IMG/VR virus record: IMGVR_UViG_3300045988_075599
Span: 1 to 64,000 of that record
Strand: one strand, 5' to 3'
Source of the DNA: a virus
Length of the DNA stretch: 64,000 bases
Position numbers and translations under genes: made by a program. The number at the start of each line of letters is the position of its first letter. Position 1 is the stretch's first letter. Under the pieces are notes generated by a model that worked only from the letters and a program-made list of their open reading frames with translations, was not told where the DNA came from and did no database searches. Shown piece after piece: positions 335-13,374 of this stretch.

Positions 335-355
335 TATTCTTTCCTTCCTTTACAA

Positions 356-778: not shown

Positions 779-782
779 ATTT

Positions 783-1202
783 CTATTGATCCTCCCCCCC
801 CGCATTGACATTTAATGTCCCTGCGGTATAGCCATCAGCAGGGATAACTTCTGCTTCATAGGATGTACCCTTTGGGATAACGAATGAGGACGTGTGGTCT
901 GTACCCCCGCTCTTTTGCGGCGTGTATACGTGGATTGTCTGATTGGCACTTTGTGTAATTGTTACATTTACATAAGTTATGGCTTCTTTCCATGCCGCAT
1001 AAGTTGTGCCATTTTTCTCTACCCTTAAATGGGTCGCATTGGCATCAGTAATGCTTCCCAGTTTTACATACCCCTTTGTCCCGTCAACTTCGAGAGCAAG
1101 GTAAGGACTGCCGCCTACTTCTTCGGCTGTTGTATAAATATTACAAGTCTCTTCTGTACCACCTGACTTTAAGATATGCAGTTTTTTAGTAAGTGTACCC
1201 AT
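783..1202 (-). CDS. hypothetical beta-rich protein (tail-fibre module)
   Basis: ATG at 1202 with TAGGAGG SD. 139 aa. The last codons run through a G8 homopolymer. Confidence 0.5.
   Translation of the reverse strand: MGTLTKKLHILKSGGTEETCNIYTTAEEVGGSPYLALEVDGTKGYVKLGSITDANATHLRVEKNGTTYAAWKEAITYVNVTITQSANQTIHVYTPQKSGGTDHTSSFVIPKGTSYEAEVIPADGYTAGTLNVNAGGEDQ
794..801 (-). repeat. G8 homopolymer on the coding strand (C8 on +)
   Basis: Read directly: cct-cccccccc-gc. It lies in the last codons of 783..1202 and inside the open upstream extension of the 356..811 frame. Confidence 0.95.
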
Positions 1203-1211
1203 CAAGTCCTC

Positions 1212-1382
1212 CTATTCCACCCATATTTGTTTACCATCAATATCCAACACTGTATCATGGTCAAGTGTTTTCAGTTTATCTAACTCTACATACAGACGGT
1301 CGCGTTGGAGTTCAATGATGTAATACTCATCGGCGGTATATCCGCCTAGCCAATGTATAATGTAATTCTTTATTCGACCCAT
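1212..1382 (-). CDS. small hypothetical protein (56 aa)
   Basis: Below the track size cutoff. Its ATG overlaps the stop of 1370..2191 (ATGGGTCGAATAA), and its stop abuts the SD of the next gene. Translation: MGRIKNYIIHWLGGYTADEYYIIELQRDRLYVELDKL... Confidence 0.4.
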   Translation of the reverse strand: MGRIKNYIIHWLGGYTADEYYIIELQRDRLYVELDKLKTLDHDTVLDIDGKQIWVE

Positions 1383-2191
1383 AATTCGCTCCCGTTAATA
1401 CTGATATGACCGTTAGATAACGGAACATAATTTACTTTAACGTAATCTTCGGTGGCAATATTCTTAGTTGAAGTTATTGCATCATACACATTCGCCAACG
1501 AAATTTGCACAGTACCTGACCCATCTAACAAAGGTGCTATGTACATATATGTAGAATCTTTATTCTTAAATTTTATCCACTGTGTGGTTGCCATTATTTT
1601 TCCATCCGCATTAGATATAGACATGCCAGACGGACCTAAACCTACACCAGATCGTGAATCTTCTGTACTTATTATTTTCAAAGGATAATCCTGAGCAGTA
1701 TTTATTTCAAGTGTTTCGCTATCCATATCCCACTTATTGTCTAGGTTATATTTAATTACTTTATTCTGCACTGGATTAGTGCTGGTGTCAGACAGTTTAC
1801 TATCTACTGTGATATTGCTACCAGTTGGAATATCTGATTTTTTTGCGTAAGTATCTACAATCTTATTACCTTCAGAATCGCGGAGGGCATTACCAGAAAT
1901 ATTGATATCCCAAGTACCAGTAGCACCAGTACCATGAATTGTGGGAGTGAATAAATTATAATTACCTTCGTCAAGTATCGTAAGACCATCTTTCGCTATA
2001 GAGCCATTATCTTTATTTACCAGTGAAACATCACTTAGACCTGTAAGACATACCTCATGTGCGCTAATCTTTTTTCTAAAAATGGTGTCCCCAGTTACCG
2101 TACCGCCAGTGAGTTTTAAGTAGTTATTACCGATATAAGTTTTAAGATTATTGAGGAACTTTGTCAGGTTCCCCAGTGTAATATATGGCAT
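1370..2191 (-). CDS. tail fibre / receptor-binding-like protein
   Basis: 273 aa with a GGAGG SD. The N-terminal LKLTGGTVTGDTIF motif is typical of phage fibre proteins as I remember them. Sits in the fibre cluster. Confidence 0.6.
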   Translation of the reverse strand: MPYITLGNLTKFLNNLKTYIGNNYLKLTGGTVTGDTIFRKKISAHEVCLTGLSDVSLVNKDNGSIAKDGLTILDEGNYNLFTPTIHGTGATGTWDINISGNALRDSEGNKIVDTYAKKSDIPTGSNITVDSKLSDTSTNPVQNKVIKYNLDNKWDMDSETLEINTAQDYPLKIISTEDSRSGVGLGPSGMSISNADGKIMATTQWIKFKNKDSTYMYIAPLLDGSGTVQISLANVYDAITSTKNIATEDYVKVNYVPLSNGHISINGSELWVE

Positions 2192-2208
2192 AAGGTTCCT
2201 CCAATTTC

Positions 2209-3060
2209 TTAGAATAAACCGTCGATGTCTGTATCAGTTGCGGAATCAATAGCGAAAATGCCACCAAAATTATCCCATTCAGCACCATCCCACACGACAT
2301 TATCGCCAGCTTTAATGTTGTGAGTAGCATCAGCAGTTTTTACATTATACATATCACCGTTTTTCTGCCCAGCCAGTGGAAGGTCTGCATAAGTTTTTAC
2401 AGAACCACGATTAACAACAGCTGTAGACACGTCAGACTTGAGAGCGTATTTAGTCATTTCGGTATTAAAGGAAGCCTTAGACAGGTAGGTATTAGCAGCG
2501 TTTGCTTTAGTTTCAAACGGAGAGGTATCAATATTACCCTGTACAGCAGACAGGATACCGTCGGATGTAATACTCAGGTTGGCACCAATCTTGATACCAC
2601 CAAGAGTGGATGTGGTTGCCATTGGAAGAGTATAGCTGTTAGCACCATCCTCAACTCCCGCCAGTTTGTTCTTCTCTGCCGTAGTGTAGTCATTAGTAGA
2701 GAGAGTTTTACCAACTACTTTATCAACCTTACCAGCAAGGTCAGAGGTAGCAGAAGCCTTGGTGTAATACTTACTATCAGCGGCAGCAACCGTCTGATAA
2801 GACGAAAGGTCAACAGACATAACACCAGTGGAAGAAATAGTTACATTACCGCCACCTTTAACGCCACCAAGTGTGGTAACGCTAGCGGTTGGAAGTGCGT
2901 ATCTATTAGCGCCAGCTGCGATGCCAGCAAGTTTAGTCTTTTCTGCTGTAGTATAATCGTTAGTAGAAAGAGTTTTGCCAGCTTCTTTTGCCACAAAGAC
3001 TTCTTTAGTTTTATCGTAAAAGTGAGACAGTTGGGCAAGTTTAATAAATTTATCAGCCAT
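2209..3060 (-). CDS. tail fibre protein with internal duplication
   Basis: Track ORF trimmed to the ATG at 3060 (MADKFIKLAQLSHFYDK...). Contains two copies of GKTLSTNDYTTAEK.KLAG...LP.A...TLGG(V/I)K. Confidence 0.65.
   Translation of the reverse strand: MADKFIKLAQLSHFYDKTKEVFVAKEAGKTLSTNDYTTAEKTKLAGIAAGANRYALPTASVTTLGGVKGGGNVTISSTGVMSVDLSSYQTVAAADSKYYTKASATSDLAGKVDKVVGKTLSTNDYTTAEKNKLAGVEDGANSYTLPMATTSTLGGIKIGANLSITSDGILSAVQGNIDTSPFETKANAANTYLSKASFNTEMTKYALKSDVSTAVVNRGSVKTYADLPLAGQKNGDMYNVKTADATHNIKAGDNVVWDGAEWDNFGGIFAIDSATDTDIDGLF
2545..2979 (-). repeat. two ~56-aa direct repeat units inside the fibre gene
   Basis: Units at aa 35-90 and 124-179 of the track ORF are near-identical at the protein level and diverged at third codon positions. 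Confidence 0.8.
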
Positions 3061-3064
3061 TAAA

Positions 3065-4573
3065 TTAGTACCTTTCTGCAAAAATCAAATCAATATCATC
3101 ATTAGTTGCAATGTTACTTACAACGCCATCCACATATTTCATAATAGTAGCGTTGTTCTGACCAACCTTCGCGTCAGTATAGTCACTAGCTTTGGTGAAT
3201 CCTTCGATATCACCAGTCTCCCTATTCTGAACCTCGGTATCTAACCTATCAGACAACGCCATATCGGAAGCCTGTAACTTGTCAACTTGCGTTTTGATGT
3301 TGGCGTTAATCTCATCGTCAGACGCCTTACGAGTATTTGCTTCGCTAGCCAGACTATTGGAGAGTTCGCCAATCTTCTTGGTAACGTTAGCGGCTACGTT
3401 AGCATCATTTCCAAGGGCATCAGCCAATTCCTTCAGGGTATCGAGTGCTTCTGGGGCACCACCAATAAGAGCAGCAACCTTACTATCAGTATACAGTTTA
3501 GAGGTGCTTACACCTTCATTCACTTTAGCAGTAACCTGCTGAGAGGTATCAGCGCCCATTTGAGCAAGGGTAACATCTTTAGTCGTGTTATCAAAGTATA
3601 AGACATGAAGAGCACCCTTAGCTTCGCCAGTAATTTCTTTTACTGGGTTGTCAAGATTGTCTAACTGAGCCTGTAAATTATTGGCGATATTCTTTGCTTC
3701 CGTAATAGCTTTATTAACTTTGATGGCGTCAGACTTAGCAGCCTCCATGTAGTCGTTAGCATTAGTTTCAGATTTCTTTGCCTCTGTCATAGAACCGTGT
3801 GCCTGACTTGCAGAGTCAGCAGCATTAGCTTCTGCCAGTTTAGCTTTGTTGAGAAGAGCAGATGTATCCGCCTTCATCTGTTCCACTTCCTGCTTTGCTT
3901 TATTGATAGCAGTAAAAGTTCCCGCAGCTTCCTGCACTTTGTTTCTACCGTACAAAGCCCAAGAGCGAGAGGATTGTGTCAGTCCAGTAGGAGATTCAAA
4001 GTCTGGCTCTCTATCTGGAGTAGTTTCAGATACCGCCCATGCTTCAGCCTTATTGACACTACGTTCGATATCAACCATCGCATCGTCGTGTGCAGTCTTG
4101 ATTTGTTCAAGAGAGTAGGTACGCACTTTATGAATTTTATCTTCAGCGCCACGTTCCCACTGGTCGATATTGGCTTTAGCCTGTGTCAGCAAAGAATTGA
4201 ATGTACTGGTCATGTACGTCATCTTTTCAGAGACCAGCGTATTGATGGTGTTTACACCAGACGTACTAGCACTCTGTGTATCCTGTAGTGCTTGCTGTGC
4301 CTTCTCCGCGTTTGTCTTTGTGGAGGCTTCGAGTTTCGTTACGTTCGCTTCAGAGGCTTGAATCTTTTTATAGGTAGAATCAATGCCATCTTTAATGGAA
4401 GTAACGTCACCAAGTGCAGCACCAGCGTCCTGCGTCTTACCGTCATCATACGTGATGATGAGGTGGGCTTGGTCGTCTAGTGCTACACTGGAGATACCGA
4501 TACCACGTTCCCCTTTCTGCCCGTAACGCAATGTTACTTTGACAGGAGAACTGGATACAGTTACATGATTCAC
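3065..4573 (-). CDS. tail fibre protein (coiled-coil shaft)
   Basis: 502 aa. GTG start 6 nt after GGAGG, overlapping the upstream stop. Long A/K/E-rich heptad-like stretch. GGAPEALDTLKELADALGND resembles the phage tail-fibre repeat signature. Confidence 0.65.
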   Translation of the reverse strand: MNHVTVSSSPVKVTLRYGQKGERGIGISSVALDDQAHLIITYDDGKTQDAGAALGDVTSIKDGIDSTYKKIQASEANVTKLEASTKTNAEKAQQALQDTQSASTSGVNTINTLVSEKMTYMTSTFNSLLTQAKANIDQWERGAEDKIHKVRTYSLEQIKTAHDDAMVDIERSVNKAEAWAVSETTPDREPDFESPTGLTQSSRSWALYGRNKVQEAAGTFTAINKAKQEVEQMKADTSALLNKAKLAEANAADSASQAHGSMTEAKKSETNANDYMEAAKSDAIKVNKAITEAKNIANNLQAQLDNLDNPVKEITGEAKGALHVLYFDNTTKDVTLAQMGADTSQQVTAKVNEGVSTSKLYTDSKVAALIGGAPEALDTLKELADALGNDANVAANVTKKIGELSNSLASEANTRKASDDEINANIKTQVDKLQASDMALSDRLDTEVQNRETGDIEGFTKASDYTDAKVGQNNATIMKYVDGVVSNIATNDDIDLIFAERY

Positions 4574-4974
4574 ATGCTACCTCCTTGAGAAATACCTGGG
4601 GAAATAAATGCTTTACCGTTGCAGATTCGTTTAACGTCATGTCCGTCGAACATATTAACATCCCAATAAAGCTCTTCCCATTCTTTATAAGAATTACCAC
4701 CAGTATCAATGGAAGCAGTTTCTTCCGCAGTCAGTGATAAATTAACGATACCATTTTTAGGGTCTACGTCTACTTGATGCATCTTCGCGATAACCGTGGT
4801 ATCCTCGGCCGACGCCTTTATACTAGCGTAAAACTTGTAACCACTAATATCAATAGGTGTATCTTCTTCTCCCTCAAGGAGTTCAAACTGAATATCAAAG
4901 TCTGCCCCTTGAGCAATAACGATATCAACTACTGGTACTAGCGGTGTTGCATTATCGCAGTTATGTCTTAACAA
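4570..4974 (-). CDS. hypothetical structural protein
   Basis: 134 aa, TTG start 6 nt after GGAGG, beta-rich. Function unknown. Confidence 0.45.
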   Translation of the reverse strand: MLRHNCDNATPLVPVVDIVIAQGADFDIQFELLEGEEDTPIDISGYKFYASIKASAEDTTVIAKMHQVDVDPKNGIVNLSLTAEETASIDTGGNSYKEWEELYWDVNMFDGHDVKRICNGKAFISPGISQGGSM

Positions 4975-5011
4975 GTTACACCTCCATAACTAAGTCCATA
5001 ACGTAAAAGAG

Positions 5012-5350
5012 CTAAGGTGCACCAGAGCAACCGCCGCATGATGCCGTACAGCCAGTGCTACAAGCTCCACCACAATTATACGAACAGCTACTACATTCAC
5101 CTCCGCAGGAGCCTCCGCATCCACCTACACATGTACCGCCACAGCTGTTGCCACATGTGGAACTACAGTTAGCTGCACACGAGTTCATACAGTTTAGTAT
5201 TTCTTGTTGAGCGTCCTTCAGGTCGTCAATCTCAACCGACAGATACGAATCGTTCTCAAGGAGTTTGCACAGGTCTCCGTACAATGAGTTTGTGATTGGG
5301 TCTCCGTGCTTCTTACTAGAAGCAGACAGAGCTGTATGTTTTAATGGCAT
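5012..5350 (-). CDS. Cys-ladder protein B (RiPP-precursor-like; 112 aa)
   Basis: Track ORF trimmed to the ATG at 5350 (AAGGGG SD). The C-terminal 55 aa carry 15 Cys at CX3C/CX2C spacing and end in CGGCSGAP. The N-terminal region is homologous to 5514..5861. Confidence 0.6.
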   Translation of the reverse strand: MPLKHTALSASSKKHGDPITNSLYGDLCKLLENDSYLSVEIDDLKDAQQEILNCMNSCAANCSSTCGNSCGGTCVGGCGGSCGGECSSCSYNCGGACSTGCTASCGGCSGAP

Positions 5351-5354
5351 TTGT

Positions 5355-5501
5355 CTACCCCTTAATCTGGCTTTGCGCCTTGTGGGCAATCTGATTCATC
5401 GTGTCGATTTGAGATTGCTGTGACTTATCTTTATTTAACAGGTCATTAAGTCTGTCGTATAAACTCTTTTTTACCCTTTCTCCTTGCTTTACTTCATCCA
5501 T
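5355..5501 (-). CDS. small coiled-coil-like protein (48 aa), not in ORF track
   Basis: AAAGGAGGG SD followed by ATG at 5501. Translation: MDEVKQGERVKKSLYDRLNDLLNKDKSQQSQIDTMNQIAHKAQSQIKG. Its stop sits 4 nt before the next ATG. Confidence 0.45.
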   Translation of the reverse strand: MDEVKQGERVKKSLYDRLNDLLNKDKSQQSQIDTMNQIAHKAQSQIKG

Positions 5502-5513
5502 AATTCCCTCCTT

Positions 5514-5861
5514 TTAAGGTGCACCATCGCAACCGCCGCACCCATCGCAACCTCTACAACTATTTCCGCAGCCACCTTGACAACTACCAGTGCAGCTAAC
5601 ACAGCTAGACTTGCACCCACCAGTACAAGATGAACACCCATCGGAACAGGAGCTAGAGCAAGATACGGCACACGAGTTTGCGCAGTCAGATATTCTATCC
5701 GATACATATCTTCTGTTCGCTAACTCCGTGTCAAGTACGCTTTCGTTTGACAATAGGGATTGAAGGTCTGTAAAAATACTAGCTGTGATAAACCCACTAT
5801 CTTTTGTTTCTATTTTGTTTATTAACCCATCTATTTTTAGCTCCCTCCTTCCACAAATCAT
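5514..5861 (-). CDS. Cys-ladder protein A (RiPP-precursor-like; up to 115 aa)
   Basis: 15 Cys between aa 60 and 111 at CX3C/CX2C spacing, ending in CGGCDGAP. The start is uncertain: the ATG at 5861 has no SD, while an in-frame ATA at 5834 follows GGAAGGAGGGAG by 6 nt. Confidence 0.6.
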   Translation of the reverse strand: MICGRRELKIDGLINKIETKDSGFITASIFTDLQSLLSNESVLDTELANRRYVSDRISDCANSCAVSCSSSCSDGCSSCTGGCKSSCVSCTGSCQGGCGNSCRGCDGCGGCDGAP

Positions 5862-6747
5862 AATTAGCTTTTACATAAGAACACAAGGAATCTCCATAGA
5901 TAGCCTTACGAACTATACACTGTATACACACATCATTCATTTCACAGGTGCTGCATTTTTCTTTATCCATCTTTCTTCCTGCATCGAGGTCGGCAATACC
6001 AAAGTTTGCCTCGTGACAGCCATACAGTTTTCCAGTTGGGCTTATCCCTATCCAGCCACACTCACTCGGGGAGCCACAGAACCTTTGCATACAAGCATCG
6101 TTGTTTGTATCGCAAATAAGTTTCTTGTACTTCTCTATAGTATTGCTATCTGCAAGTTCGTCATATTTAAGGAAGTTCCAGTAGATAGATACAGGGAAAC
6201 CCTTGCTGTTTATAAAGTCTATATTCTGTTTTGCTCTGTCCAACAGAAGTTTGTTCTCTATCACGTAAACACAGAACACACTTCTAGCGCCACAGCTTTT
6301 CAGGAACTCGTAGGTATCGTCTGTTAAATATCTAGGGTTCTTCTGTGCATGGTCAAAACTTGCGGCTATAACAAAGTTACAACCGCGGTCTTTCATCCAG
6401 AGAATAAGTTCTCTGCCTTCTTCAGTATTCAGTTTGTGGCAGTTGGTGACGATGTTATATTCTATACTTATACCGTATTCTTCCATCTGGTCGCACAATA
6501 GAACTATCTTCTTTATTAAGTCTGGGTGTAAGAGTGGTTCTCCGCCCTCTATTTCCACAGACAAAGAGTCGTCAAGTATTTGCCTATTGTTTAGGATTGC
6601 ATAAAGGGATTGTAACTGAGAGCCACTTCCGTCCAATCTCTTTGAGATTTCACTATTTATTTGCGTACAATATCTGCAATGGCAGTCACAATCAAATCCA
6701 GTCGCTACCCGAAGACTCTTTATCTTTTTTATTTTATCCTCTTCCAT
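5797..6747 (-). CDS. radical SAM enzyme with SPASM-like C-terminal domain (rSAM-2)
   Basis: CDCHCRYC contains CX3CX2C at aa 20-27. The C-terminus has CGWIGISPTGKLYGC (GX4C) followed by CSTCEMNDVCIQC. Confidence 0.8.
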   Translation of the reverse strand: MEEDKIKKIKSLRVATGFDCDCHCRYCTQINSEISKRLDGSGSQLQSLYAILNNRQILDDSLSVEIEGGEPLLHPDLIKKIVLLCDQMEEYGISIEYNIVTNCHKLNTEEGRELILWMKDRGCNFVIAASFDHAQKNPRYLTDDTYEFLKSCGARSVFCVYVIENKLLLDRAKQNIDFINSKGFPVSIYWNFLKYDELADSNTIEKYKKLICDTNNDACMQRFCGSPSECGWIGISPTGKLYGCHEANFGIADLDAGRKMDKEKCSTCEMNDVCIQCIVRKAIYGDSLCSYVKANYDLWKEGAKNRWVNKQNRNKR

Positions 6748-6979
6748 GTTTTTCTACCGAAGACATTAGATAACATGCGATATTATCCATTGCCGTTTTA
6801 CAACTCTCCCGCGTGTACGGGTCTTTAATTTTATCCATGCTATAGTTTGCCAACTTCAGAAACAAGATTCCAACATTTTCCGTAAGGACTGCGAGGTCTT
6901 TTTCTGATTTGATATTTGCTACATCGTCTTTCTCTAGCACAATGTCATTCTTATCGGTTACACTAATCTTCATTTTCAA
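6734..6979 (-). CDS. hypothetical protein (81 aa)
   Basis: ORF track. Overlaps both neighbours, consistent with a coupled operon. No motif recognised. Confidence 0.45.
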   Translation of the reverse strand: MKMKISVTDKNDIVLEKDDVANIKSEKDLAVLTENVGILFLKLANYSMDKIKDPYTRESCKTAMDNIACYLMSSVEKHGRG

Positions 6980-7619
6980 TAGCCCTTACCCTTTCTTTGA
7001 CAGCTTCAACGGCAGCATTAACCTGTTCGGTTTGCGTTAAAAATTCTTCAATACTAGAACTATCTTCTTCTGAGATAGGTGGCTCAGCATCGTCTTCGTC
7101 CAGAGACATCGCAGCAGCCTGATTGTTTCTGTTAATATAATCATTGAGCAGAATGGATACAATCTTCCGAAGAGATAACAGCTCGTCTCTCACAGATACA
7201 GAACCTTCAATAGCGGCATTAGTCGCCCATGCAGCTCTCTTATCGAGAGACGGTTTGTCTTTGTATCTAAACTCAAAGTTCACCCAATCGGCAGTAAAGT
7301 CATTGAAGTTTTTCGCAATCCAAGGAATCGTGTACTCTGGAACCCCTTCTTTGTTAATCGGCATAAACCTAACGGGGAAGCAGTAGCCTTTTGGATATGG
7401 TTCTTTGCCCATCCTCTTCAGCCAAGCCTCGTAGTCCTCGTGTGTTTCAAAAAACTTACCCCCGTCATACGGGTAAAACACACTAGTGTTATATTTGTAT
7501 CTGTCAAAAACGTGTGGGTCAGAAGATTCAAAGAAGTAGTCTGTAAATAATCCAGGAATATCAGTGCCTCTGTTCATTTTATCTTCTTCGTTCTTGACGC
7601 TCGCAAATACGTAAATCAA
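6963..7619 (-). CDS. hypothetical protein with acidic C-terminus (218 aa)
   Basis: ORF track. TTG start overlaps the rSAM-1 stop; an alternative ATG lies at 7576. No motif recognised. Confidence 0.5.
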   Translation of the reverse strand: MIYVFASVKNEEDKMNRGTDIPGLFTDYFFESSDPHVFDRYKYNTSVFYPYDGGKFFETHEDYEAWLKRMGKEPYPKGYCFPVRFMPINKEGVPEYTIPWIAKNFNDFTADWVNFEFRYKDKPSLDKRAAWATNAAIEGSVSVRDELLSLRKIVSILLNDYINRNNQAAAMSLDEDDAEPPISEEDSSSIEEFLTQTEQVNAAVEAVKERVRAIENED

Positions 7620-8695
7620 AGTTTAACACCTCTCATTCTTTCGTTCCAGTAGTCATAAGCCTTGTATTCCTGCTCGGTCATAATTTCTTCATTACATCCG
7701 TAATCAAACGTACCATTGATGTCATAGTTAGCGGAGTAGCACAGTGGGAGTTTTGTATTACCCATCTGTTTGTTGATTCTAATCTGTCCTTCTCTAAATT
7801 TTCTAAACAATTCTTCATCTACGCCATGGTCAACATCTCCAATAGAGTATTTGTGGTTTGTACTTGTGGCGAACCTGTGGCAAGGATATAGCTTACCATC
7901 CATACCAAGCGTTACCATGAAAGCACCACTACCACAGTAACCGACTTCCATGTTTAGAGACTCTTCTTTGATTGGACGTGGGCGACCGATTGGTCTTACT
8001 TTTGTATATAACTTCCTATGGAAAACAAAGTCAATGACTTTTCTCAGCTGCCTGTAATATTCTTCTGCATCTTCTTTTGTCCAATGTTCTTCATAGATTG
8101 GATTTGCCCACGGCTGAAATCCTAATTGGATTTGGTTAATCAACATATCCCCAAGCATTGGCAACGTGTCTCTGTTCATCGTTCCTTTTACCAAGACCTG
8201 TGCATATCTATGCCTCCACCACTGTAGGTTCTTTAAGATTTCATCATAAGAGCCTTTGCCATCTGGGTGGACTCTATTCATGTCATGTGCTTTCTTACAT
8301 CCATCCAAAGACAATCCAACAGTAATACAAGGATAATCTTCAAGAAACTTCTTTACTTTCGGAATAGAGAATAATGTTCCGTTGGATGTTGTAAAGCACT
8401 GGAACCTGTGTTCTGTAATCCATGGATGTTTAAGTCTTGTCCCGACTTCAACAAACTTATTGATGGCGTGTGCCATCAAGTCCGTTTCCAGTAACGCTTC
8501 TCCACCAATAAAATCCAAGATAATGCTATCAAACTTAGAGTACCTTTTATCAGAATATAAGATATCAATGAACTTATCAATGTTGTCTACAGTATTCTTG
8601 TTGTACTGCTTGTTAGCCTCATAGCAATATTTGCACGCAAGGTTACATTTATCCGTAATAAAAATTGTTGCCGTTAAAGGAATACTTCTTTTCAC
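7616..8695 (-). CDS. radical SAM enzyme, anSME/SPASM-twitch-like peptide-modifying type (rSAM-1)
   Basis: ITDKCNLACKYCYE gives CX3CX2C at aa 17-24. GGEALL-type motif present. C-terminal CGSGAFMVTLGMDGKLYPC gives GX4C. Confidence 0.85.
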   Translation of the reverse strand: MKRSIPLTATIFITDKCNLACKYCYEANKQYNKNTVDNIDKFIDILYSDKRYSKFDSIILDFIGGEALLETDLMAHAINKFVEVGTRLKHPWITEHRFQCFTTSNGTLFSIPKVKKFLEDYPCITVGLSLDGCKKAHDMNRVHPDGKGSYDEILKNLQWWRHRYAQVLVKGTMNRDTLPMLGDMLINQIQLGFQPWANPIYEEHWTKEDAEEYYRQLRKVIDFVFHRKLYTKVRPIGRPRPIKEESLNMEVGYCGSGAFMVTLGMDGKLYPCHRFATSTNHKYSIGDVDHGVDEELFRKFREGQIRINKQMGNTKLPLCYSANYDINGTFDYGCNEEIMTEQEYKAYDYWNERMRGVKL

Positions 8696-10503
8696 TATCT
8701 CACCAGCACTTTCACAAACCCATTGTTCTTCTTTTCAATAACAATCCCGACAGCCTTGTCAGACCAATCTCTTACGGAAATGCCAACACCAGGTTTGCCA
8801 GACGGAACTATATATGAACCAAGGCAAGGGTCATCCAAAACTTTAACAGACACACGCCCAACAAGACATACTGGAATAAACCTCTTCATATTATGCTCTA
8901 CATAGTTTTTTGATGGTTCACCTCCGATTATATGTGCGTAATCACCAGAGACAATACCAGCGATTACTTTATCATCAAGCGTAGCTTTTCTGTACCTACC
9001 AGTGGTAAGGTCTAATGCAACAATATCGCCAACATCAGCGTCATCGCCTCGCTCAAACCACTCTGCGTAGTCGTTATATACAGCGTTAAACACCTTAGCT
9101 CCGACAACATTGCCACTAGCAGAAATACCACCAGTTACCTGAACATCATTCGCGGTAAACAAGTTTGAGTCCAGCGTGTTCGTCTCGAACGACCCTGTTG
9201 TGATGGAGATTGCATTAACTTCACTTGCTGTAATATTTGTTGCAGAGCACTCTGACGTATTTACGGAAGTGGAATCGAGCGTACTGGTAGAAACTTTTTC
9301 TGTGGAAATGTTACCGTCGATAGTAATCTCATGAGTGGTAATCTTTCTTGCAGAAAGATTTTGTGTTGACACATCGTTAGATGTAAGAGTTTTAGAGCAA
9401 ATATTGTTAGCGTGCAAGTCAATACAAGTAGATAGTCCAGAAAATCTATCATTTACAACAGAGATATTTACGGTATCAGACTGCTTAGATTCGCCAAGTA
9501 CATCAAAATACTTGAGGTAAACAGAGAGTGTACTATCCGTTGTATAGTATACGAACTTATCTACAGACGCTCCTACAGAAAACTTCTCTTTGTTGATATA
9601 AATATTTGTACCGTTACCGTACTTTGGAGACTTGAACGACAGTTCAACACAATACCTATCATCGTTTTCATTTTTTGTAACTGTGTAAGTTGGAGCTCCT
9701 GGTGTAGCTAGTTCTGGGAACGAATATGTAGACGAAGATTCAGAAGAGTATTTCTTACTAACACCATAGTTCGCCCCGTAAATAGTACCAGTTCTATTCT
9801 GTGGTACATACAGGTACGAATAGCCTCTGGACTTAACAATTAAGCCAGAGTCAGAACCAAAGTTATTGTCATCATCTCTGATTTCAGTATAGATGTAGTA
9901 TGGACTAGATTGCTGACCCCACTCGATTACAAGTCCATCGGCAGTGGCCGTTGTTGTCAAATACGCAAGTGGAGTTGTTGCTCTAACTTGAATTGGAATA
10001 TACATGACATCGAAAGGAGCTTTGCTTTCGTCAGACCTGTTACCATCATCGGTCACACCAATAACAGAAGCTCTATAAGAATAGCCACTAAGCACATTCT
10101 CGATGGTCAAACTAAAAGCGCCGTTGGCAGATTTGTAAATCTTAGAACCAATTTGGTTCCAGTCTACATTCTGAGAACCTCTAGTTACAGATTGCTGTAA
10201 AGTGACAATCGCGTAACTGTATATACGGGAGCCGTTAAACGTACCTTTATCCCATGTTAGCACAAGATTATACTGGTCGTTGTCTAGCTCATACCTCATA
10301 GAGAAGTTGCCCAACTGGTTACTAATAGTACCAGCAGTTCCTTGAGAGCCGTTACCACCACCACCGCTACCTGTGCCAGCGTATGTTGCGATATAGTCAA
10401 GGGTTTTTCTCACCGCATCGGAAAACTTACGTCCATCGCCCTGGCTATCTGTAGGGATAGATGCGACTAGCTGTGCGGCTTGTTTGTTAAAATCTGTAGC
10501 CAT
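8695..10503 (-). CDS. tail spike / fibre with putative C-terminal intramolecular-chaperone (autoproteolytic) domain
   Basis: 602 aa. Beta-rich, FN3-like N-terminal two thirds. The C-terminal NDYAEWFERGDD...GDIV... resembles the cleavage region of phi29-type appendage and endosialidase chaperone domains, from memory. Confidence 0.6.
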   Translation of the reverse strand: MATDFNKQAAQLVASIPTDSQGDGRKFSDAVRKTLDYIATYAGTGSGGGGNGSQGTAGTISNQLGNFSMRYELDNDQYNLVLTWDKGTFNGSRIYSYAIVTLQQSVTRGSQNVDWNQIGSKIYKSANGAFSLTIENVLSGYSYRASVIGVTDDGNRSDESKAPFDVMYIPIQVRATTPLAYLTTTATADGLVIEWGQQSSPYYIYTEIRDDDNNFGSDSGLIVKSRGYSYLYVPQNRTGTIYGANYGVSKKYSSESSSTYSFPELATPGAPTYTVTKNENDDRYCVELSFKSPKYGNGTNIYINKEKFSVGASVDKFVYYTTDSTLSVYLKYFDVLGESKQSDTVNISVVNDRFSGLSTCIDLHANNICSKTLTSNDVSTQNLSARKITTHEITIDGNISTEKVSTSTLDSTSVNTSECSATNITASEVNAISITTGSFETNTLDSNLFTANDVQVTGGISASGNVVGAKVFNAVYNDYAEWFERGDDADVGDIVALDLTTGRYRKATLDDKVIAGIVSGDYAHIIGGEPSKNYVEHNMKRFIPVCLVGRVSVKVLDDPCLGSYIVPSGKPGVGISVRDWSDKAVGIVIEKKNNGFVKVLVR

Positions 10504-10511
10504 TTCTCACC

Positions 10512-11018
10512 TCACGTAGGAAGCATCTTACCAATGCTAGTAGCGAAATCCATTTCAGAACCCATGTCGAACCCATGGTTTTGCATAGCCAAAGAAATAA
10601 CAATCTGGGCAAGCAGATTTACTAAGGCAGGTTTCATAAAATGAGAGCCTGGCAGTAATTCATCGGACAGCTCACCTACTCTTGGTGGCTGCTTCCAATA
10701 CCTAAAAGTGCATGGCAAATCCCCATAACACACAACCTTATCTCCATCCCTATATACTGGCGGTACACCTGTTGGAGTCCCATAATCTTTTGGAATGTAT
10801 TCCTCTTTGCTATCCATCGTAAGCCAGCCAGCGGCTTCGTCATAATCTTTTTGAATCATGACTTGCCATACCATATTGATTGCATCATTGATATAGGCAA
10901 TCAATTCTTGGTCTGTGTATGCAATTTCAGAGGCATCAGCAATTCTTTCTTTAATCGCGAATCTCTGAATAAACTTTTCGACGGTCATGTTCTGAAGATA
11001 GTCTGGTTTCTCAGCCAT
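10512..11018 (-). CDS. head-tail connector/adaptor-like protein (paralog 3)
   Basis: 168 aa. Carries the YTDQELIAYINDAINMV motif shared with the two upstream genes. Positioned between capsid and tail spike. Confidence 0.45.
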   Translation of the reverse strand: MAEKPDYLQNMTVEKFIQRFAIKERIADASEIAYTDQELIAYINDAINMVWQVMIQKDYDEAAGWLTMDSKEEYIPKDYGTPTGVPPVYRDGDKVVCYGDLPCTFRYWKQPPRVGELSDELLPGSHFMKPALVNLLAQIVISLAMQNHGFDMGSEMDFATSIGKMLPT

Positions 11019-11476
11019 TAGCTACCAGCCCCCTGTCCCTGTTGCACTTGCTGCCCTTGCATGGGGTCTGCCTCAAGGACAGTGGCATCAATAAGGCGTT
11101 TAAGCTGCCAATCTCTATAGAACTGAACTTTGTCTGTCAGAAGCTTAATCTTCGGACGCATAGCGAAATATCGAACAATCATAGGGCATGGATACTCTTG
11201 GTCTAACAATTCCATATTTACCGTCTCCCCTTCTTCAGTAAAGGCGATAGGGTACTGTCCTACAAACTCAATAAAATCACTTGGGCGCTCCATTGTCTGT
11301 CCAGCTTCAATCTGAAACTCTTTAACAAATTCTGGAGTTTTACTATCCGAACATTCAAGAGACACCGTATCAATGGCGTTGTTAAGGCAATAGATGAGTT
11401 CTTCGTCAGAGTATTTCAACTTAGACATATCGTTAAGTTTCTGACGTACCTTAATCAGTAGTTGGTTTACTGTCAT
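11018..11476 (-). CDS. head-tail connector/adaptor-like protein (paralog 2)
   Basis: 152 aa. Carries the YSDEELIYCLNNAIDTV motif. Confidence 0.45.
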   Translation of the reverse strand: MTVNQLLIKVRQKLNDMSKLKYSDEELIYCLNNAIDTVSLECSDSKTPEFVKEFQIEAGQTMERPSDFIEFVGQYPIAFTEEGETVNMELLDQEYPCPMIVRYFAMRPKIKLLTDKVQFYRDWQLKRLIDATVLEADPMQGQQVQQGQGAGS

Positions 11477-11488
11477 TCAATCACCCCT

Positions 11489-12022
11489 TTACAAATAGAA
11501 TGGAAGTTCTCTTGTGATTTCATAGTCATTGGCTTGGCTATTAGTCTCAGCGGCAACGGCATTAGCGATGTCATCGTCGGAGATAGAGCCATTGATATAG
11601 CCAATACATAATCTAACCAAGAGAAGATAAAAGAAATAAGGAAGTTCAATGATTTCATCCAAGTGATGAATCAATGGGACATGTCTAAAATAAATCATAG
11701 TGTCATCGGTGTCGGTATAAATCTTTGTACCACGGATGTGCCACTTAATCTTCTTACGTTCACCTTCCGACAGCTCTTCATCAGACAGCCACCCAGAGAA
11801 GTTGATATAATCGTCTGGTAACTCTACGCCATACTTACGTGCTTTAACGGTTACTTCCTTTTTAACATACGGAGAGTCAAGCCGAACAAGTTCAAGATTC
11901 ACATATGTTAGTACATGGTTAATAGCTGTCACAAGTTCTTCATCAGAGTGACTACGATTATACAATTCGTTGAGTCCCATCAGGATGTCATTGGACAACC
12001 TTCTTGCACGAATGTACTCCAT
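11489..12022 (-). CDS. head-tail connector/adaptor-like protein (paralog 1)
   Basis: 177 aa with an AAGGAGG SD. Carries the HSDEELVTAINHVLTYV motif. Confidence 0.45.
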   Translation of the reverse strand: MEYIRARRLSNDILMGLNELYNRSHSDEELVTAINHVLTYVNLELVRLDSPYVKKEVTVKARKYGVELPDDYINFSGWLSDEELSEGERKKIKWHIRGTKIYTDTDDTMIYFRHVPLIHHLDEIIELPYFFYLLLVRLCIGYINGSISDDDIANAVAAETNSQANDYEITRELPFYL

Positions 12023-12031
12023 AATTCCTCC

Positions 12032-12343
12032 TTACATGTGGTCAACTGTCATAAACTCTGGGTTGTCCTTCAGCCACTGTTTGATATATTTGTTGAAGCT
12101 CTCGTGGTCGCCACACGCCATAGCTTCTTTAGCACACTGGAGTGTAAGCTCCGTCGGGTCGTTCCAGCATTCATAAGGGATACGCCCCAGCCTTCGACCA
12201 CCTTTGTGCTTCCCGAGATACGGGTCTTTCTTTCTATCCTCGTAGCAGGAACGCATAATATCAGTTGCATCCCAAGTATTAGTCAGTGACCAGTTACCGT
12301 GTTTATCGACATCAACGTCTTGTCTTACAATGTTATTACTCAT
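12032..12343 (-). CDS. hypothetical protein downstream of capsid gene
   Basis: Track ORF trimmed to the ATG at 12343 (AAAGGAGA SD). 103 aa. Confidence 0.5.
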   Translation of the reverse strand: MSNNIVRQDVDVDKHGNWSLTNTWDATDIMRSCYEDRKKDPYLGKHKGGRRLGRIPYECWNDPTELTLQCAKEAMACGDHESFNKYIKQWLKDNPEFMTVDHM

Positions 12344-12412
12344 GTTATCTCCTTTTGATATAAGAAAAAAGGGGAGCCATAGGCTCCCCAATCTTCTACA
12401 CGAGAACCTCCG

Positions 12413-13374
12413 TTACGGTGCAACGGTTGGAGTAATAGTCTCCACAACAACTGGTTTCGGATTAACCTTACCAGTCAGGTTCTTAATACGAGCGTTAGCA
12501 TTCGGTGCGGTGCATTCGATAGATGCTACGCCAGTGATTACCTTTTCCTTGTAAGTACCGACTCTCGGCGGTTCTTCAGTATGGAACGGAATAAGGTAGC
12601 CAAGTTTCCAATACTGCGGGTCGAGCAGGTCAACCACATCGTCAGAGTACATACGATGGGCTTCCAGACGAAGAGAACCAAAGTCAGTCTCGATGATTTC
12701 GAGAGAGGTGGTAATACTCTTGTCACCTGCCTGACGAATCGGCAGTGCACCCTGAGTGAAATCAGCGCATCCGCGTTTGTTACGTGCGGACATAATAGCG
12801 ACGGTCGGGTCGCCACCACGCTGCCAAGTCAGCTGCATTGCATCGTTCAGAAGGTCGAACGTAAGGTTGCCCTTAGCGACATCCTTTGCTGCATCAATGC
12901 AGTTCTGGAAGGTGAGGGAAGTCATCGCACTCTCTTCAACCTTACCTTCACCAGAGGAGACACCATGACCATTCGCGTCATACTTGACGGAGTTCATAGC
13001 ACCTTCTGGACTATCGTACAGGTAGAACGTATTAGCGTCCTTAACTGCTACGTAGTAGGCAACGTTTTCTTTACATTCGGTACCACCACGAACAATGAGG
13101 GCATCGCCGTTTACAAAGCCGTGGTCGTTCAGAGTGAACACACCAGCAGCTACGGAAGCACCTTTCAGTTCATCTTCAAGGAAGTACGGGATACCACCGA
13201 AAGTACCAGCAACGTTTTCAGACATCGGGGTTGCAGTGGTGTTGTTGACGATAGCGTATTCAAGGTCTCCTGCGATTTCCTTACCAGCCTTAACGAACTG
13301 GTACGCTACTTCATCACGAACGCCGTACTTCTTGATAGCCTGAGTGATATCAGAGATGTTATCATTTGTGTTAG
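12413..13374 (-). CDS. major capsid protein (HK97-fold-like), exon 2
   Basis: The frame is open up to 13375, upstream of the track ATG, and encodes ...NTNDNISDITQAIKKYGVRDEVAYQFVKAGKEIAGDLEYAIV, which reads as capsid sequence. There is no SD before the ATG at 13225. The C-terminal part reads like an HK97-fold A/P-domain. Same reading phase as exon 1. Confidence 0.7.

What the first reader, a model, noticed from the sequence alone, without database searches (positions are those of the whole stretch)
5012..8695. Two radical-SAM/SPASM-like enzymes plus two Cys-ladder precursor-like proteins inside the tail-fibre operon
These genes are same-strand and tightly packed or overlapping. They sit between the tail spike (8695..10503) and the distal fibre genes (4974 and below).
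- rSAM-1 (7616..8695): CNLACKYC gives CX3CX2C, and the C-terminus has the GKLYPC auxiliary-cluster motif.
- Two unknown proteins of 218 aa and 81 aa.
- rSAM-2 (5797..6747): CDCHCRYC, then GKLYGC, then CSTCEMNDVCIQC.
- Two ~112-aa paralogs whose C-terminal ~55 aa hold 15 Cys each.

One maturase-like enzyme per substrate-like gene is the layout of rSAM-dependent RiPP clusters of the sactipeptide/ranthipeptide thioether type. Here there is no leader peptidase, exporter or immunity gene, and the surroundings are purely virion-structural. Two readings fit. The first is a post-translationally cross-linked (thioether or metal-cluster) tail-tip component. The second is a modified peptide made during infection. 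I do not know of a described phage tail module with this composition.
Basis: partly seen in the sequence, partly recalled or inferred. Interest (0 to 1): 0.9.

Follow-up and report, generated by a model that had tools for sequence, protein, structure and literature searches.

The report
Radical-SAM-matured Cys-ladder phage tail proteins
A phage carries, inside its tail-fibre genes, two radical-SAM enzymes plus small proteins with a cysteine at every fourth residue; the same pairing turns up in many unrelated phages, sometimes fused to true tail-fibre proteins, which suggests an undescribed enzymatic modification of phage tail fibres.

Summary
Window 5012-8695 (minus strand) holds seven tightly packed genes, not six: rSAM-1, p218, p81, rSAM-2, CRP1, a missed 48-aa gene (p48, 5355-5501), and CRP2.

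Each CRP has a conserved helical N-terminal ~55 aa, then 15 Cys in strict CxxxC/CxxC register. p48 is a Cys-less paralog of that N-terminal domain.

rSAM-1 is closest to NCBIfam TIGR04115 (radical SAM maturase, CXXX-repeat target family), then to PapB and CteB, both thioether-forming. It scores below all three cut-offs and has lost the second auxiliary-cluster motif. rSAM-2 keeps a full SPASM-type Cys motif.

This is a phage version of the computationally defined CXXX-repeat/rSAM system. It lacks the bacterial partner proteins and export signals.

- 28 of 32 viral rSAM clusters have a CXXX protein next door.
- Neighbours are baseplate, fibre or spike genes.
- In other phages the CXXX domain is fused to a true tail fibre, a GDSL esterase or glycine-rich domains.
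- The cultured jumbo phages SPN3US and Huxley carry the module, with the Cys-rich genes unannotated or misframed.

Best reading: rSAM-modified, probably thioether-cross-linked, tail-fibre subunits. The chemistry and virion location are inferred, not shown. I found no paper describing this.

The parts
8695..10503 (-). 602-aa spike/fibre-like protein with a C-terminal intramolecular-chaperone (Peptidase_G2-type) domain. It is the upstream neighbour of the module.
   Evidence: PF11962, 24.0 bits against a cut-off of 25. Homologs of its C-terminal domain lie directly upstream of the rSAM or CXXX genes in relatives and in unrelated viral loci L058, L076, L084, L096, L097 and L104.
7616..8695 (-). 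rSAM-1: radical SAM enzyme with CX3CX2C (C17, C21, C24) and a half-SPASM/twitch-like C-terminus (C254, C272, C319). Nearest families are the CXXX-repeat-target maturase family and PapB.
   Evidence: PF04055, 40.6 bits (cut-off 29.5). TIGR04115, 200 bits (cut-off 350). PapB NF047865, 161 bits (cut-off 340). CteB 5WGG, E 4e-20. Alignment A1 shows the loss of CX2CX5CX3C.
6963..7619 (-). p218: conserved lineage-specific protein of unknown fold. Presumed maturation or assembly accessory.
   Evidence: No Pfam, NCBIfam, PHROG or PDB hit. Only 6 representatives among 1.84 billion proteins. 47 invariant columns across 10 orthologs. pN/pS 0.34. AF2 pLDDT 52.
6734..6979 (-). p81: small conserved protein of unknown function. 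Possibly a substrate-binding accessory.
   Evidence: Conserved in 21 related loci at 33-44% identity. pN/pS 0.37. No family or PDB profile hit.
5797..6747 (-). rSAM-2: divergent radical SAM enzyme with CX3CX2C (CDCHCRYC), a GGEP motif and a complete 7-Cys SPASM-type motif.
   Evidence: The sequence shows the motifs directly. phrog_1802, E 1e-16. HxsB 46 bits and PapB 36 bits. CteB, E 2e-5. Pfam Radical_SAM gives only 18 bits, below the cut-off.
5514..5861 (-). CRP1: N-terminal helical domain plus 15 Cys in CxxxC/CxxC register. The likely true start is ATA 5834.
   Evidence: phrog_6085, E 6e-5.
5355..5501 (-). p48: Cys-less paralog of the CRP N-terminal domain.
   Evidence: Conserved as a 48-54 aa ORF in relatives. 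hhalign against the CRP N-termini: probability 92.7%, E 4e-7.
5012..5350 (-). CRP2 (112 aa from ATG 5350): N-terminal helical domain plus 15 Cys in CxxxC/CxxC register, ending CGGCSGAP.
   Evidence: phrog_6085, E 5e-5. AF2 predicts a helix at residues 18-62, at low confidence.
4570..4974 (-). LtfC-like beta-sandwich protein (tail-fibre attachment or assembly). It is the downstream neighbour of the module.
   Evidence: PF23926, 31.3 bits (cut-off 27). phrog_1084, E 2e-23. phrog_3304 'L-shaped tail fiber protein assembly', E 1e-9.
3065..4573 (-). 502-aa tail-fibre protein.
   Evidence: 19 PHROG tail or tail-fibre families, the best being phrog_1197 at E 8e-14.

Best explanation
The module is a phage-borne variant of the CXXX-repeat/radical-SAM protein-maturation system, and its products are tail-fibre-associated structural subunits rather than a diffusible peptide.

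Proposed sequence of events:
1. Late in infection CRP1, p48 and CRP2 are made from the structural operon.
2. Their conserved ~45-residue N-terminal helices serve as the recognition handle for the enzymes. They also serve as the oligomerisation or attachment domain, possibly as a CRP1:p48:CRP2 heterotrimer.
3. rSAM-1 (PapB/CteB-like, one auxiliary cluster) and rSAM-2 (full SPASM motif) each use S-adenosylmethionine to generate a 5'-deoxyadenosyl radical. They modify the Cys-every-fourth-residue tails covalently, most likely with sulfur-to-carbon thioether bridges. The result would be a protease-resistant, rigid multi-ring ladder.
4. p218 and p81 are non-catalytic accessories.
5. The matured proteins join the spike/fibre apparatus encoded on either side. 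Their variable C-terminal ends face outward.

Shown here: gene content, family affinities, synteny, co-occurrence, and fusions in other phages. Inferred: the chemistry (by homology only), virion incorporation, the trimer model, and the accessory roles.
For: Enzyme affinity:
- rSAM-1's top hits are TIGR04115 (E 6.6e-59) and PapB (E 4.5e-47) over the full length.
- Its nearest solved structure is the thioether-forming SCIFF maturase CteB.
- Outside its phage clade, its nearest homologs are bacterial proteins named 'radical SAM peptide maturase, CXXX-repeat target family'.

Substrate pairing:
- 28 of 32 viral rSAM clusters (at 60% identity) have a same-strand Cys-run ORF within 5 kb. The same holds for 73 of 80 bacterial genome loci.
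- The window has no other such ORF.

Conservation:
- The whole seven-gene module is syntenic in relatives with 65-69% identical rSAM-1.
- All genes are under purifying selection, with pN/pS 0.15-0.39.

Structural role:
- The module lies between a spike-like protein and LtfC/fibre genes, with no strong internal terminator.
- In L042 the CXXX genes follow the baseplate wedge genes. In L076 they follow a 1126-aa tail fibre.
- In L110 a Collar-domain protein and a tail assembly chaperone are adjacent.
- L061 encodes a 451-aa protein that is a tail fibre (phrog_2631, E 3e-32) ending in a CXXX domain (phrog_6085, E 3e-7). It sits beside a fused double-rSAM protein.
- L082 fuses a GDSL esterase to a CXXX tail, and L064 fuses CXXX repeats to two glycine-rich domains.
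- In SPN3US the module follows gp167-gp171, and gp168 and gp171 are tail-associated (PMC5105663).

Other points:
- Three tandem paralogs recur: in the window, in L008, in Huxley and in SPN3US.
- The N-terminus is near-invariant, while the C-terminal end varies even among contigs whose rSAM genes are identical.
Against: - No experiment or proteome shows these proteins in a virion.
- A conserved N-terminus with a hypervariable Cys-rich C-terminus is also the classic leader/core pattern of RiPP precursors.
- rSAM-1 scores below the curated cut-offs of TIGR04115 and PapB. It lacks the second auxiliary cluster.
- PapB needs a carboxylate acceptor after the Cys (PMC12373016). The CXXX repeats do not supply one systematically: Asp is 3-7% at the X positions.
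- To my knowledge the chemistry of the CXXX-repeat family has not been determined in any organism.
- The Cys/Ser/Gly/Thr/Asn composition is metallothionein-like, so metal binding could be the final state.
- AF2 gave no confident fold for CRP2 or p218.
- The variation hot-spot contains more synonymous than amino-acid changes (6 against 3 in CRP1). It could therefore reflect recombination rather than selection.
Confidence: 0.55

Rival explanations
1. A classical RiPP made during infection. The N-terminal ~55 aa is a leader and the Cys-rich tail is the core. The modified peptide is released at lysis, or trimmed by a host protease, and acts as a bacteriocin, signal or anti-competitor agent. Its position among tail genes would be incidental, as for a moron.
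For: - Leader-like conserved N-terminus and hypervariable core.
- The enzymes belong to RiPP maturase clades.
- Clostridial genomes pair the same rSAM family with 45-100 aa peptides that look like true RiPPs, and NCBIfam names TIGR04118 an rSAM-modified Cys-rich RiPP.
Against: - No peptidase, exporter or immunity gene.
- The genes are translationally coupled inside the structural operon, not at a moron-type boundary.
- The position beside tail genes recurs in many unrelated phage lineages.
- CXXX domains are fused to 400-830 aa tail-fibre, esterase and glycine-rich proteins, which cannot be diffusible peptides.
- A Cys-less 'leader-only' paralog (p48) has no role in a RiPP pathway.
Confidence: 0.2
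2. The Cys-rich tails are metal-thiolate (metallothionein-like or Fe-S) modules on the tail. The rSAM enzymes perform a different or minor modification, or help load a cluster. The functional state would be a metal-stiffened or redox-active fibre tip.
For: - About 27% Cys with S/G/T/N/A/D between them, and almost no bulky residues.
- Bacteroidales homologs carry twin-arginine signals, the export route typical of proteins that fold or take up cofactors in the cytoplasm.
- From my own knowledge, metal ions are known at the tips of some phage fibres and spikes.
Against: - Metal binding needs no rSAM enzyme, yet the pairing with a thioether-clade rSAM is nearly obligate.
- A strict period of four is not a known cluster-binding spacing (my own knowledge).
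- No ferredoxin or metallothionein family hit.
Confidence: 0.12
3. The rSAM enzymes act on something else (a fibre protein, nucleic acid or small molecule). The Cys-rich proteins would be unrelated disulfide-rich decoration or adaptor proteins.
For: - rSAM-2 is very divergent, with weak hits to many rSAM families including MoaA, QueE and NrdG.
- Campylobacter phages carry rSAM genes without CXXX neighbours.
Against: - Same-strand adjacency of this rSAM clade with CXXX ORFs holds across 28 of 32 viral clusters and 73 of 80 genome loci.
- Curated NCBIfam models already define the CXXX repeat as this clade's target.
- The Campylobacter enzymes match only the N-terminal core, 43% of the query.
Confidence: 0.08

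Closest known systems
CXXX-repeat peptide / radical SAM maturase system of anaerobic bacteria (NCBIfam TIGR04115 rSAM, TIGR04114/04117/04118 targets, TIGR04119 CXXX_matur, TIGR04116 CXXX_rpt_assoc; Pfam PF27846)
   Same: rSAM-1's best family match is TIGR04115. The target has Cys at every fourth residue with small polar residues between, and it is encoded next to the enzyme on the same strand.
   Different: - rSAM-1 scores 200 bits against the cut-off of 350 and has lost the CX2CX5CX3C auxiliary motif.
- The partners TIGR04119 and TIGR04116 are absent. A second complete rSAM (rSAM-2) plus the orphan proteins p218 and p81 stand in their place.
- The targets have no TAT or lipoprotein signal and no short leader. 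They carry a helical N-terminal domain shared with a Cys-less paralog instead.
- The context is a phage tail module.
PapB/freyrasin and other ranthipeptide or sactipeptide maturases (CteB/SCIFF, CcpM)
   Same: Closest biochemically characterised relatives: PapB at 161 bits over the full length, and CteB as the nearest solved structure. Like PapB, rSAM-1 has no N-terminal RRE-sized extension, since CX3CX2C begins at residue 17. These enzymes form Cys-S-to-carbon thioethers in Cys-rich peptides (PMC12373016).
   Different: - Below the PapB cut-off of 340 bits.
- PapB requires a carboxylate acceptor C-terminal to the Cys (CSAND-type motifs; PMC12373016). Here position i+4 is another Cys, and Asp or Glu are rare.
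- The substrates are 106-117 aa proteins, or domains of proteins up to about 830 aa, not short leader/core peptides.
Unrecognised rSAM/Cys-rich modules of cultured jumbo phages (Salmonella SPN3US gp163-gp166 region; Erwinia Huxley gp172-gp177 region)
   Same: Two adjacent rSAM genes, three tandem Cys-ladder paralogs (two long and one short), an unknown ~290-aa protein, and a position next to tail and DUF4376 genes.
   Different: - Only 25-27% identity in rSAM-1.
- Gene order is reversed, with targets before enzymes.
- The jumbo-phage rSAM keeps the full SPASM motif.
- The N-terminal domains are unrelated in sequence.
- The Cys-rich ORFs are unannotated or annotated in the wrong frame or strand in the public records.
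Tail-fibre maturation aids such as intramolecular chaperone domains and tail-fibre assembly proteins (Peptidase_G2/S74 IMC, DUF4376, LtfC)
   Same: Non-virion or self-cleaved helpers encoded next to the fibre gene that they mature. Such genes flank this module and its analogues.
   Different: These aids work by folding or autoproteolysis. None is a radical enzyme, and no covalent rSAM modification of a virion protein is described in the papers I could search.

Membership tests
Radical SAM superfamily (PF04055) | CX3CX2C cluster motif near the N-terminus, and a Pfam score above the gathering cut-off (29.5 bits) | tested here: met
   rSAM-1 has CNLACKYC and scores 40.6 bits. rSAM-2 has the motif (CDCHCRYC) and GGEP but only 18.0 bits, so it passes on motif and phrog_1802 (E 1e-16) and fails the Pfam threshold.
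SPASM subfamily (PF13186 / TIGR04085) | Seven-Cys motif CX9-15GX4C ... CX2CX5CX3C ... C, binding two auxiliary [4Fe-4S] clusters | tested here: not met
   rSAM-1 keeps CGSG...GKLYPC and one later Cys (C319), but the CX2CX5CX3C block is deleted in its whole clade. Pfam SPASM scores 16.1 bits against 21.5. It is therefore twitch-like at best. rSAM-2 has C...GKLYGC...CSTCEMNDVCIQC...C by eye but gives no HMM hit, which I count as inconclusive.
TIGR04115 rSAM_Cxxx_rpt (equivalog domain) | Score at or above the curated cut-off (350 bits) | tested here: not met
   200.2 bits, E 6.6e-59. It is the best-scoring family, covering profile positions 4-302 of 359.
TIGR04115 system | Adjacent CXXX-repeat target protein | tested here: met
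   CRP1 and CRP2 each have 15 Cys at spacing 3-4. They match phrog_6085. There is no NCBIfam hit for the window CRPs themselves, although the L008 ortholog reaches TIGR04114 at 21.8 bits against a cut-off of 20.
TIGR04115 system | Partner proteins TIGR04119 (CXXX_matur) and TIGR04116 (CXXX_rpt_assoc) | tested here: not met
   The bacterial reference locus L006 has both, at 247 and 99.6 bits. None of the window's p218, p81 or rSAM-2 hits them. rSAM-2 against the L006 TIGR04119 protein shares only the GKxY-C hairpin.
PapB-type ranthipeptide maturase (NF047865) | Score at or above 340 bits, and a substrate with a Cys-X3-Asp/Glu acceptor motif | tested here: not met
   160.9 bits. Position i+4 is Cys, and Asp is 3-7% at the X1-X3 positions. 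The carboxylate requirement is taken from PMC12373016.
Classical RiPP biosynthetic cluster | Leader/core precursor plus leader peptidase and/or exporter and/or RRE domain | tested here: inconclusive
   The precursor-like architecture is present. No peptidase, ABC transporter or PqqD/RRE family was detected in any module protein. p218 and p81 remain of unknown fold.
Phage tail-fibre component | Presence in the purified virion, or attachment to the tail | not testable with these tools
   Only indirect evidence is available: the position between spike and fibre genes, and CXXX domains fused to tail-fibre, esterase or glycine-rich proteins in other phages.
Thioether (sacti-/ranthi-) cross-linked product | A -2 Da loss per link, loss of free thiols, and S-C connectivity by MS/MS or NMR | not testable with these tools
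   Inferred only from homology to PapB and CteB.

The most novel reading that the evidence does not exclude
Many tailed phages, from ~64-kb gut phages to 240-kb jumbo phages of Salmonella and Erwinia, build part of their tail fibres from Cys-every-fourth-residue domains. Phage-encoded radical SAM enzymes modify these domains covalently before assembly. That would be a previously unrecognised class of enzymatically cross-linked, hypervariable virion structure, and the first radical-SAM post-translational modification of a virus particle.
Probability: 0.45. Interest if true: 0.9.

Novelty: new variant of a known kind. Interest (0 to 1): 0.8.

Why it matters
If the reading holds, several consequences follow.

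- Phage receptor-binding machinery would include a chemically cross-linked module installed by radical enzymes. As far as I could find, that has not been described for any virus.
- It would assign a function to the 'radical SAM superfamily protein 1/2' genes that have been annotated for years in SPN3US-like jumbo phages.
- It would expose a set of unannotated or misframed structural genes in reference genomes.
- It would give the uncharacterised CXXX-repeat rSAM family (TIGR04115) a tractable experimental model, because SPN3US has amber-mutant genetics and virion proteomics.
- Poly-macrocyclic fibre tips would be of interest for protease-stable binders, for host-range engineering, and for understanding how gut phages survive proteolysis.
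- Even under the rival RiPP reading, it would be a widespread phage-encoded modified peptide.

Tried and rejected
- **Nucleotide search of 4500-10600 against 50,697 phage records:** no match. No close cultured relative exists.
- **tblastn of CRP1 against phages:** nothing, because of low-complexity masking. I switched to a Cys-run detector in Python.
- **AlphaFold2 of CRP2 (7-sequence alignment):** pLDDT 43, showing one long helix then disorder.
- **AlphaFold2 of p218 (6 sequences):** pLDDT 52. Both models are too poor for fold search, so none was run.
- **p218:** no PDB relative, only three word-index hits, and six representatives in an exhaustive HMMER scan of 1.84 billion proteins. One of the six is a spurious repeat protein. 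It remains an orphan. I found no detectable similarity to the equivalent-position proteins of L008 or Huxley.
- **p81 profile against PDB:** nothing. An RRE/PqqD identity could not be established.
- **Is rSAM-2 the counterpart of bacterial TIGR04119?** Only the GKxY-C hairpin aligns, so this is neither supported nor excluded.
- **Family-wide dN/dS:** synonymous sites are saturated (pS 0.4-0.7). It shows only that all the genes are under purifying selection.
- **Campylobacter phage rSAM genes (CP220):** not the same module. No CXXX ORF is nearby, and only the N-terminal core matches.
- **Close prophage relatives in 185,579 species genomes:** none, so no host could be assigned.
- **Literature:** seven full-text searches found no paper on a phage CXXX/rSAM tail module. 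I believe the Haft & Basu 2011 paper defined the bacterial system (from memory), but the PMC id I tried for it is not held.
- **Promoter scan:** at chance level, so not used.

Full report
**1. What is in the sequence**

On the minus strand, window 5012-8695 holds seven genes in a head-to-tail run:

| Gene | Coordinates | Size |
|---|---|---|
| rSAM-1 | 7616-8695 | 359 aa |
| p218 | 6963-7619 | 218 aa |
| p81 | 6734-6979 | 81 aa |
| rSAM-2 | 5797-6747 | 316 aa |
| CRP1 | 5514-5861 | 115 aa |
| p48 | 5355-5501 | 48 aa |
| CRP2 | 5012-5350 | 112 aa |

Neighbouring genes overlap by 1-65 nt or are separated by at most 37 nt. Each CRP ends in a run of 15 Cys spaced 4 residues apart, sometimes 3. No other ORF in the 64-kb window has such a run.

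I made three corrections to gene boundaries and content:
- CRP2 starts at ATG 5350, behind an AAGGGG site. This matches the 112-aa length of all database homologs.
- CRP1 probably starts at ATA 5834, just after a GGAAGGAGG site. This gives the same N-terminal length as its orthologs.

The surrounding genes are virion genes:
- portal, scaffold and an SU10-type major capsid protein;
- a 602-aa spike-like protein with a Peptidase_G2-type intramolecular-chaperone domain;
- an LtfC-like protein and several tail-fibre proteins.

The only strong terminator-like site in 1-13500 follows the capsid gene (12389-12371). None lies inside the module.

**2. The enzymes**

rSAM-1 passes Pfam Radical_SAM (40.6 bits). 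Its best curated family is TIGR04115, 'radical SAM peptide maturase, CXXX-repeat target family' (200 bits, E 6.6e-59). Next come the PapB ranthipeptide maturase (161 bits), CcpM, and the SCIFF maturase. All of these scores are below the curated cut-offs.

The nearest solved structure is CteB, the thioether-forming SCIFF maturase (E 4e-20). Well-characterised non-peptide enzymes such as QueE, NrdG and MoaA are absent or far down the list for rSAM-1.

An alignment with phage and bacterial homologs (A1) shows which Cys residues survive. The window clade keeps CX3CX2C, the CGSG...GKLYPC hairpin and one later Cys. It has lost the CX2CX5CX3C block that bacterial TIGR04115 proteins and more distant phage homologs retain. 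rSAM-1 thus has at most one auxiliary cluster and is twitch-like.

rSAM-2 is much more divergent: Pfam 18 bits, HxsB 46 bits, phrog_1802 E 1e-16, and CteB E 2e-5. It nevertheless shows CX3CX2C, GGEP and a complete seven-Cys SPASM-type pattern.

p218 and p81 have no family, PDB or confident AF2 assignment. Both are conserved and under purifying selection.

**3. The Cys-rich proteins**

Alignments of 19 CRP1 and 15 CRP2 orthologs show three features:
- a nearly invariant N-terminal ~55 aa, with motifs IFTDLQxLLxN and SIYDDLxKLLAND;
- a conserved CMNSC entry point;
- an invariant Cys register in which the residues between the Cys vary freely.

AF2 predicts a single long helix for residues 18-62 and no structure for the tail, at low confidence.

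p48 is a Cys-less paralog of the N-terminal domain (hhalign probability 92.7%, E 4e-7). It is conserved in relatives.

Across 109 distinct CXXX proteins collected here, 2750 Cys-Cys spacings are CxxxC and 534 are CxxC. Almost nothing else occurs. The X residues are S, T, G, N, A or D.

In seven near-identical viral contigs, rSAM-1, rSAM-2 and p76 have no variable codon out of 740. CRP1 has nine (six synonymous, three amino-acid-changing, the latter at residues 99, 100 and 111). The p48 ortholog has seven. That is a local hot-spot at the C-terminal end, though partly synonymous.

**4. Relatives and distribution**

The seven-gene module is syntenic in a family of ~64-70 kb phage contigs from ENA, Logan and IMG/VR. 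rSAM-1 identity is 65-69%, or 83-98% for the closest. It always lies after a protein carrying the same chaperone-type C-terminal domain as the window's spike.

A more distant phage contig (L008, rSAM-1 50% identical) has this order: DUF4376 protein, rSAM, three CRPs, a second rSAM.

Beyond that clade, identity drops to 30-35% with bacterial proteins that NCBI names 'CXXX-repeat target family' maturases.

A profile scan of IMG/VR returned 80 loci.
- After clustering the rSAMs at 60% identity, 28 of 32 clusters have a same-strand Cys-run ORF within 5 kb.
- Many of these ORFs are large, from 170 to 830 aa, with up to 92 Cys in register.

The contexts are tail modules:
- baseplate wedge and baseplate proteins directly upstream in L042;
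- a 1126-aa tail fibre directly upstream in L076;
- homologs of the window spike's C-terminal domain directly upstream in six further loci;
- a Collar-domain protein and a tail assembly chaperone in L110.

**5. Rosetta-stone fusions**

- L061 encodes a 451-aa protein that matches a dozen tail-fibre PHROGs over its N-terminal and central parts (phrog_2631, E 3e-32). It ends in a CXXX domain (phrog_6085, E 3e-7).
- The next gene in L061 is a 686-aa fusion of two radical SAM domains. Its second half aligns with rSAM-1.
- L082 fuses a GDSL esterase (92.5 bits) to a CXXX tail. From my own knowledge, this enzyme type is common in tail spikes.
- L064-type proteins fuse ~230 aa of CXXX repeats to two ALK/LTK-type glycine-rich domains (326 bits).
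- L040 follows the repeats with a Hint domain.

These fusions are hard to reconcile with a small diffusible peptide. They argue that the CXXX array is a structural module of tail fibres, and that the two rSAM activities work together.

**6. Cultured phages**

Erwinia phage Huxley and Salmonella phage SPN3US carry two adjacent rSAM genes. Those of SPN3US are annotated 'radical SAM superfamily protein 1/2'. Both genomes also have three tandem Cys-ladder ORFs: two of ~130 aa and one of 68-69 aa.

- In SPN3US these ORFs are unannotated. RefSeq gp100 (GenBank SPN3US_0166) is called in a different frame across one of them.
- In Huxley, RefSeq annotates opposite-strand ORFs (notes gp176 and gp177) across the two long Cys-ladder ORFs, which are themselves unannotated.
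- tblastn with the N-terminal domain finds the same situation in 48 records from Salmonella, Erwinia, Escherichia and Proteus phages.
- In SPN3US the module lies immediately downstream of gp171-gp167. gp168 and gp171 were assigned to the tail by mutant proteomics (PMC5105663). A DUF4376 protein follows.

The recurring set of three paralogs appears in the window (two long plus Cys-less p48), in L008 (three long), and in the jumbo phages (two long plus one short). This suggests a hetero-trimeric assembly. That idea is an inference only.

**7. Bacterial counterparts**

In 185,579 species genomes, 73 of 80 loci with an rSAM-1-like gene have a CXXX ORF. Three kinds of target appear:
- Bacteroidales targets with a twin-arginine signal (ELQSRREFFKKAAK...ALPILG), often followed by a lipobox-like Cys;
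- Clostridial peptides of 45-100 aa with short leaders;
- prophage-like proteins whose N-termini match those of the viral contigs.

The reference Bacteroidaceae locus L006 also carries TIGR04119 (247 bits) and TIGR04116 (99.6 bits). The window lacks both.

**8. Interpretation**

The finding is best described as a phage variant of the CXXX-repeat/rSAM maturation system, embedded in and probably serving the tail-fibre apparatus.

The modification is most likely thioether cross-linking, by homology to PapB and CteB. This is not shown, and there are reasons for caution:
- PapB's requirement for a carboxylate acceptor (PMC12373016) is not met by these repeats.
- To my knowledge the chemistry of TIGR04115-type enzymes is itself uncharacterised.
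- A metal-thiolate end state cannot be excluded.

The RiPP reading is weakened by the fusions, the recurrent tail context, the Cys-less paralog, and the lack of peptidase or exporter genes. It is not excluded either.

**9. Novelty**

The building blocks are known: rSAM/SPASM maturases, and the CXXX target repeat as a computational family with PHROG entries of unknown function. The following appear not to be described in the literature I could search:
- the placement in phage tails;
- the fusions to fibre proteins;
- the two-rSAM architecture with orphan accessories;
- the presence of unannotated Cys-ladder genes in model jumbo phages.

I rate it a new variant of a known kind. It has high interest because it is widespread and directly testable in SPN3US.

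Noticed in passing
window 5355-5501 (-): A 48-aa ORF lies between the two Cys-rich genes. It is conserved as 48-54 aa in relatives and is a Cys-less paralog of the CRP N-terminal domain (hhalign 92.7%). With it, the window has three paralogs in tandem, as do L008, Huxley and SPN3US.
   Followed up: yes
window 5832-5861 (-): The ATG of CRP1 at 5861 has no ribosome-binding site and overlaps rSAM-2 by 65 nt. A strong GGAAGGAGG site sits inside codons 4-7, followed by an in-frame ATA (5834) and by an out-of-frame mini-ORF ATG-GGT-TAA. Starting at ATA would give exactly the N-terminal length of the orthologs.
   Followed up: partly
window 12413-14437 (-): The SU10-type major capsid gene appears split. 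The N-terminal part is at 14129-14437 and the C-terminal part at 12413-13225 (PF17236, profile positions 152-292). A LAGLIDADG homing-endonuclease ORF (13410-14042, PF14528, 44.6 bits) lies between them. This is probably a group I intron, or another mobile insertion, in the capsid gene.
   Followed up: partly
window 49291-61344 (-) and 61362-62837 (-): A giant 4017-aa ORF has no Pfam hit in the local scan. The giant 4100-5560-aa proteins at the equivalent position in related contigs carry Phage_lysozyme2, helicase and ddrB-ParB domains. It is preceded by a 491-aa SLT transglycosylase. It is probably a huge ejected or internal virion protein.
   Followed up: no
L105 (NC_027402 SPN3US) 7001-8030; L009 (NC_031127 Huxley) 4140-5162: Reference jumbo-phage genomes miss or misframe the Cys-ladder genes. 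SPN3US gp100 (ACQ60_gp100, SPN3US_0166) is annotated in a different frame over a 134-aa CXXX ORF, and the 130-aa and 68-aa paralogs are unannotated. In Huxley, opposite-strand ORFs (notes gp176 and gp177) are annotated across the two long ones.
   Followed up: yes
L012-L017, L025 (IMG/VR 3300045988 contigs), about 11080-11380: In seven otherwise near-identical phage contigs, both rSAM genes and p76 have no variable codon out of 740. Variation is concentrated in CRP1 (nine variable codons, the three amino-acid changes at its C-terminal end) and the p48 ortholog (seven). This is a local hot-spot of recombination or mutation.
   Followed up: partly
L061 7218-9278; L058 4825-7212: L061 encodes a 686-aa fusion of two radical SAM domains next to a tail fibre with a CXXX end. 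L058's 795-aa rSAM is interrupted by an intein (Intein_splicing, Hint_2 and a homing-endonuclease domain).
   Followed up: partly
L040 4405-5520: A 371-aa protein with three copies of an N-terminal repeat motif, a CXXX array, and then a Hint autoprocessing domain (PF05203, 38.9 bits). This suggests self-cleavage directly after the Cys ladder in some lineages.
   Followed up: no
L111-L190 (GTDB genomes): Bacteroidales CXXX targets almost all begin with a twin-arginine signal (ELQSRREFFKKAAK..ALPILG), often with several paralogs per locus. Margulisbacteria and Termititenax carry 495-667-aa CXXX proteins. The 'RiPP' label for this family may not fit most of its members.
   Followed up: partly
L107 (Phage Phass-1, OQ749652) 7168-7692: An unannotated 174-aa ORF with a short CXXX tail lies directly after the rSAM gene. 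It is readable only if TAG is read through, as in genetic code 15.
   Followed up: no
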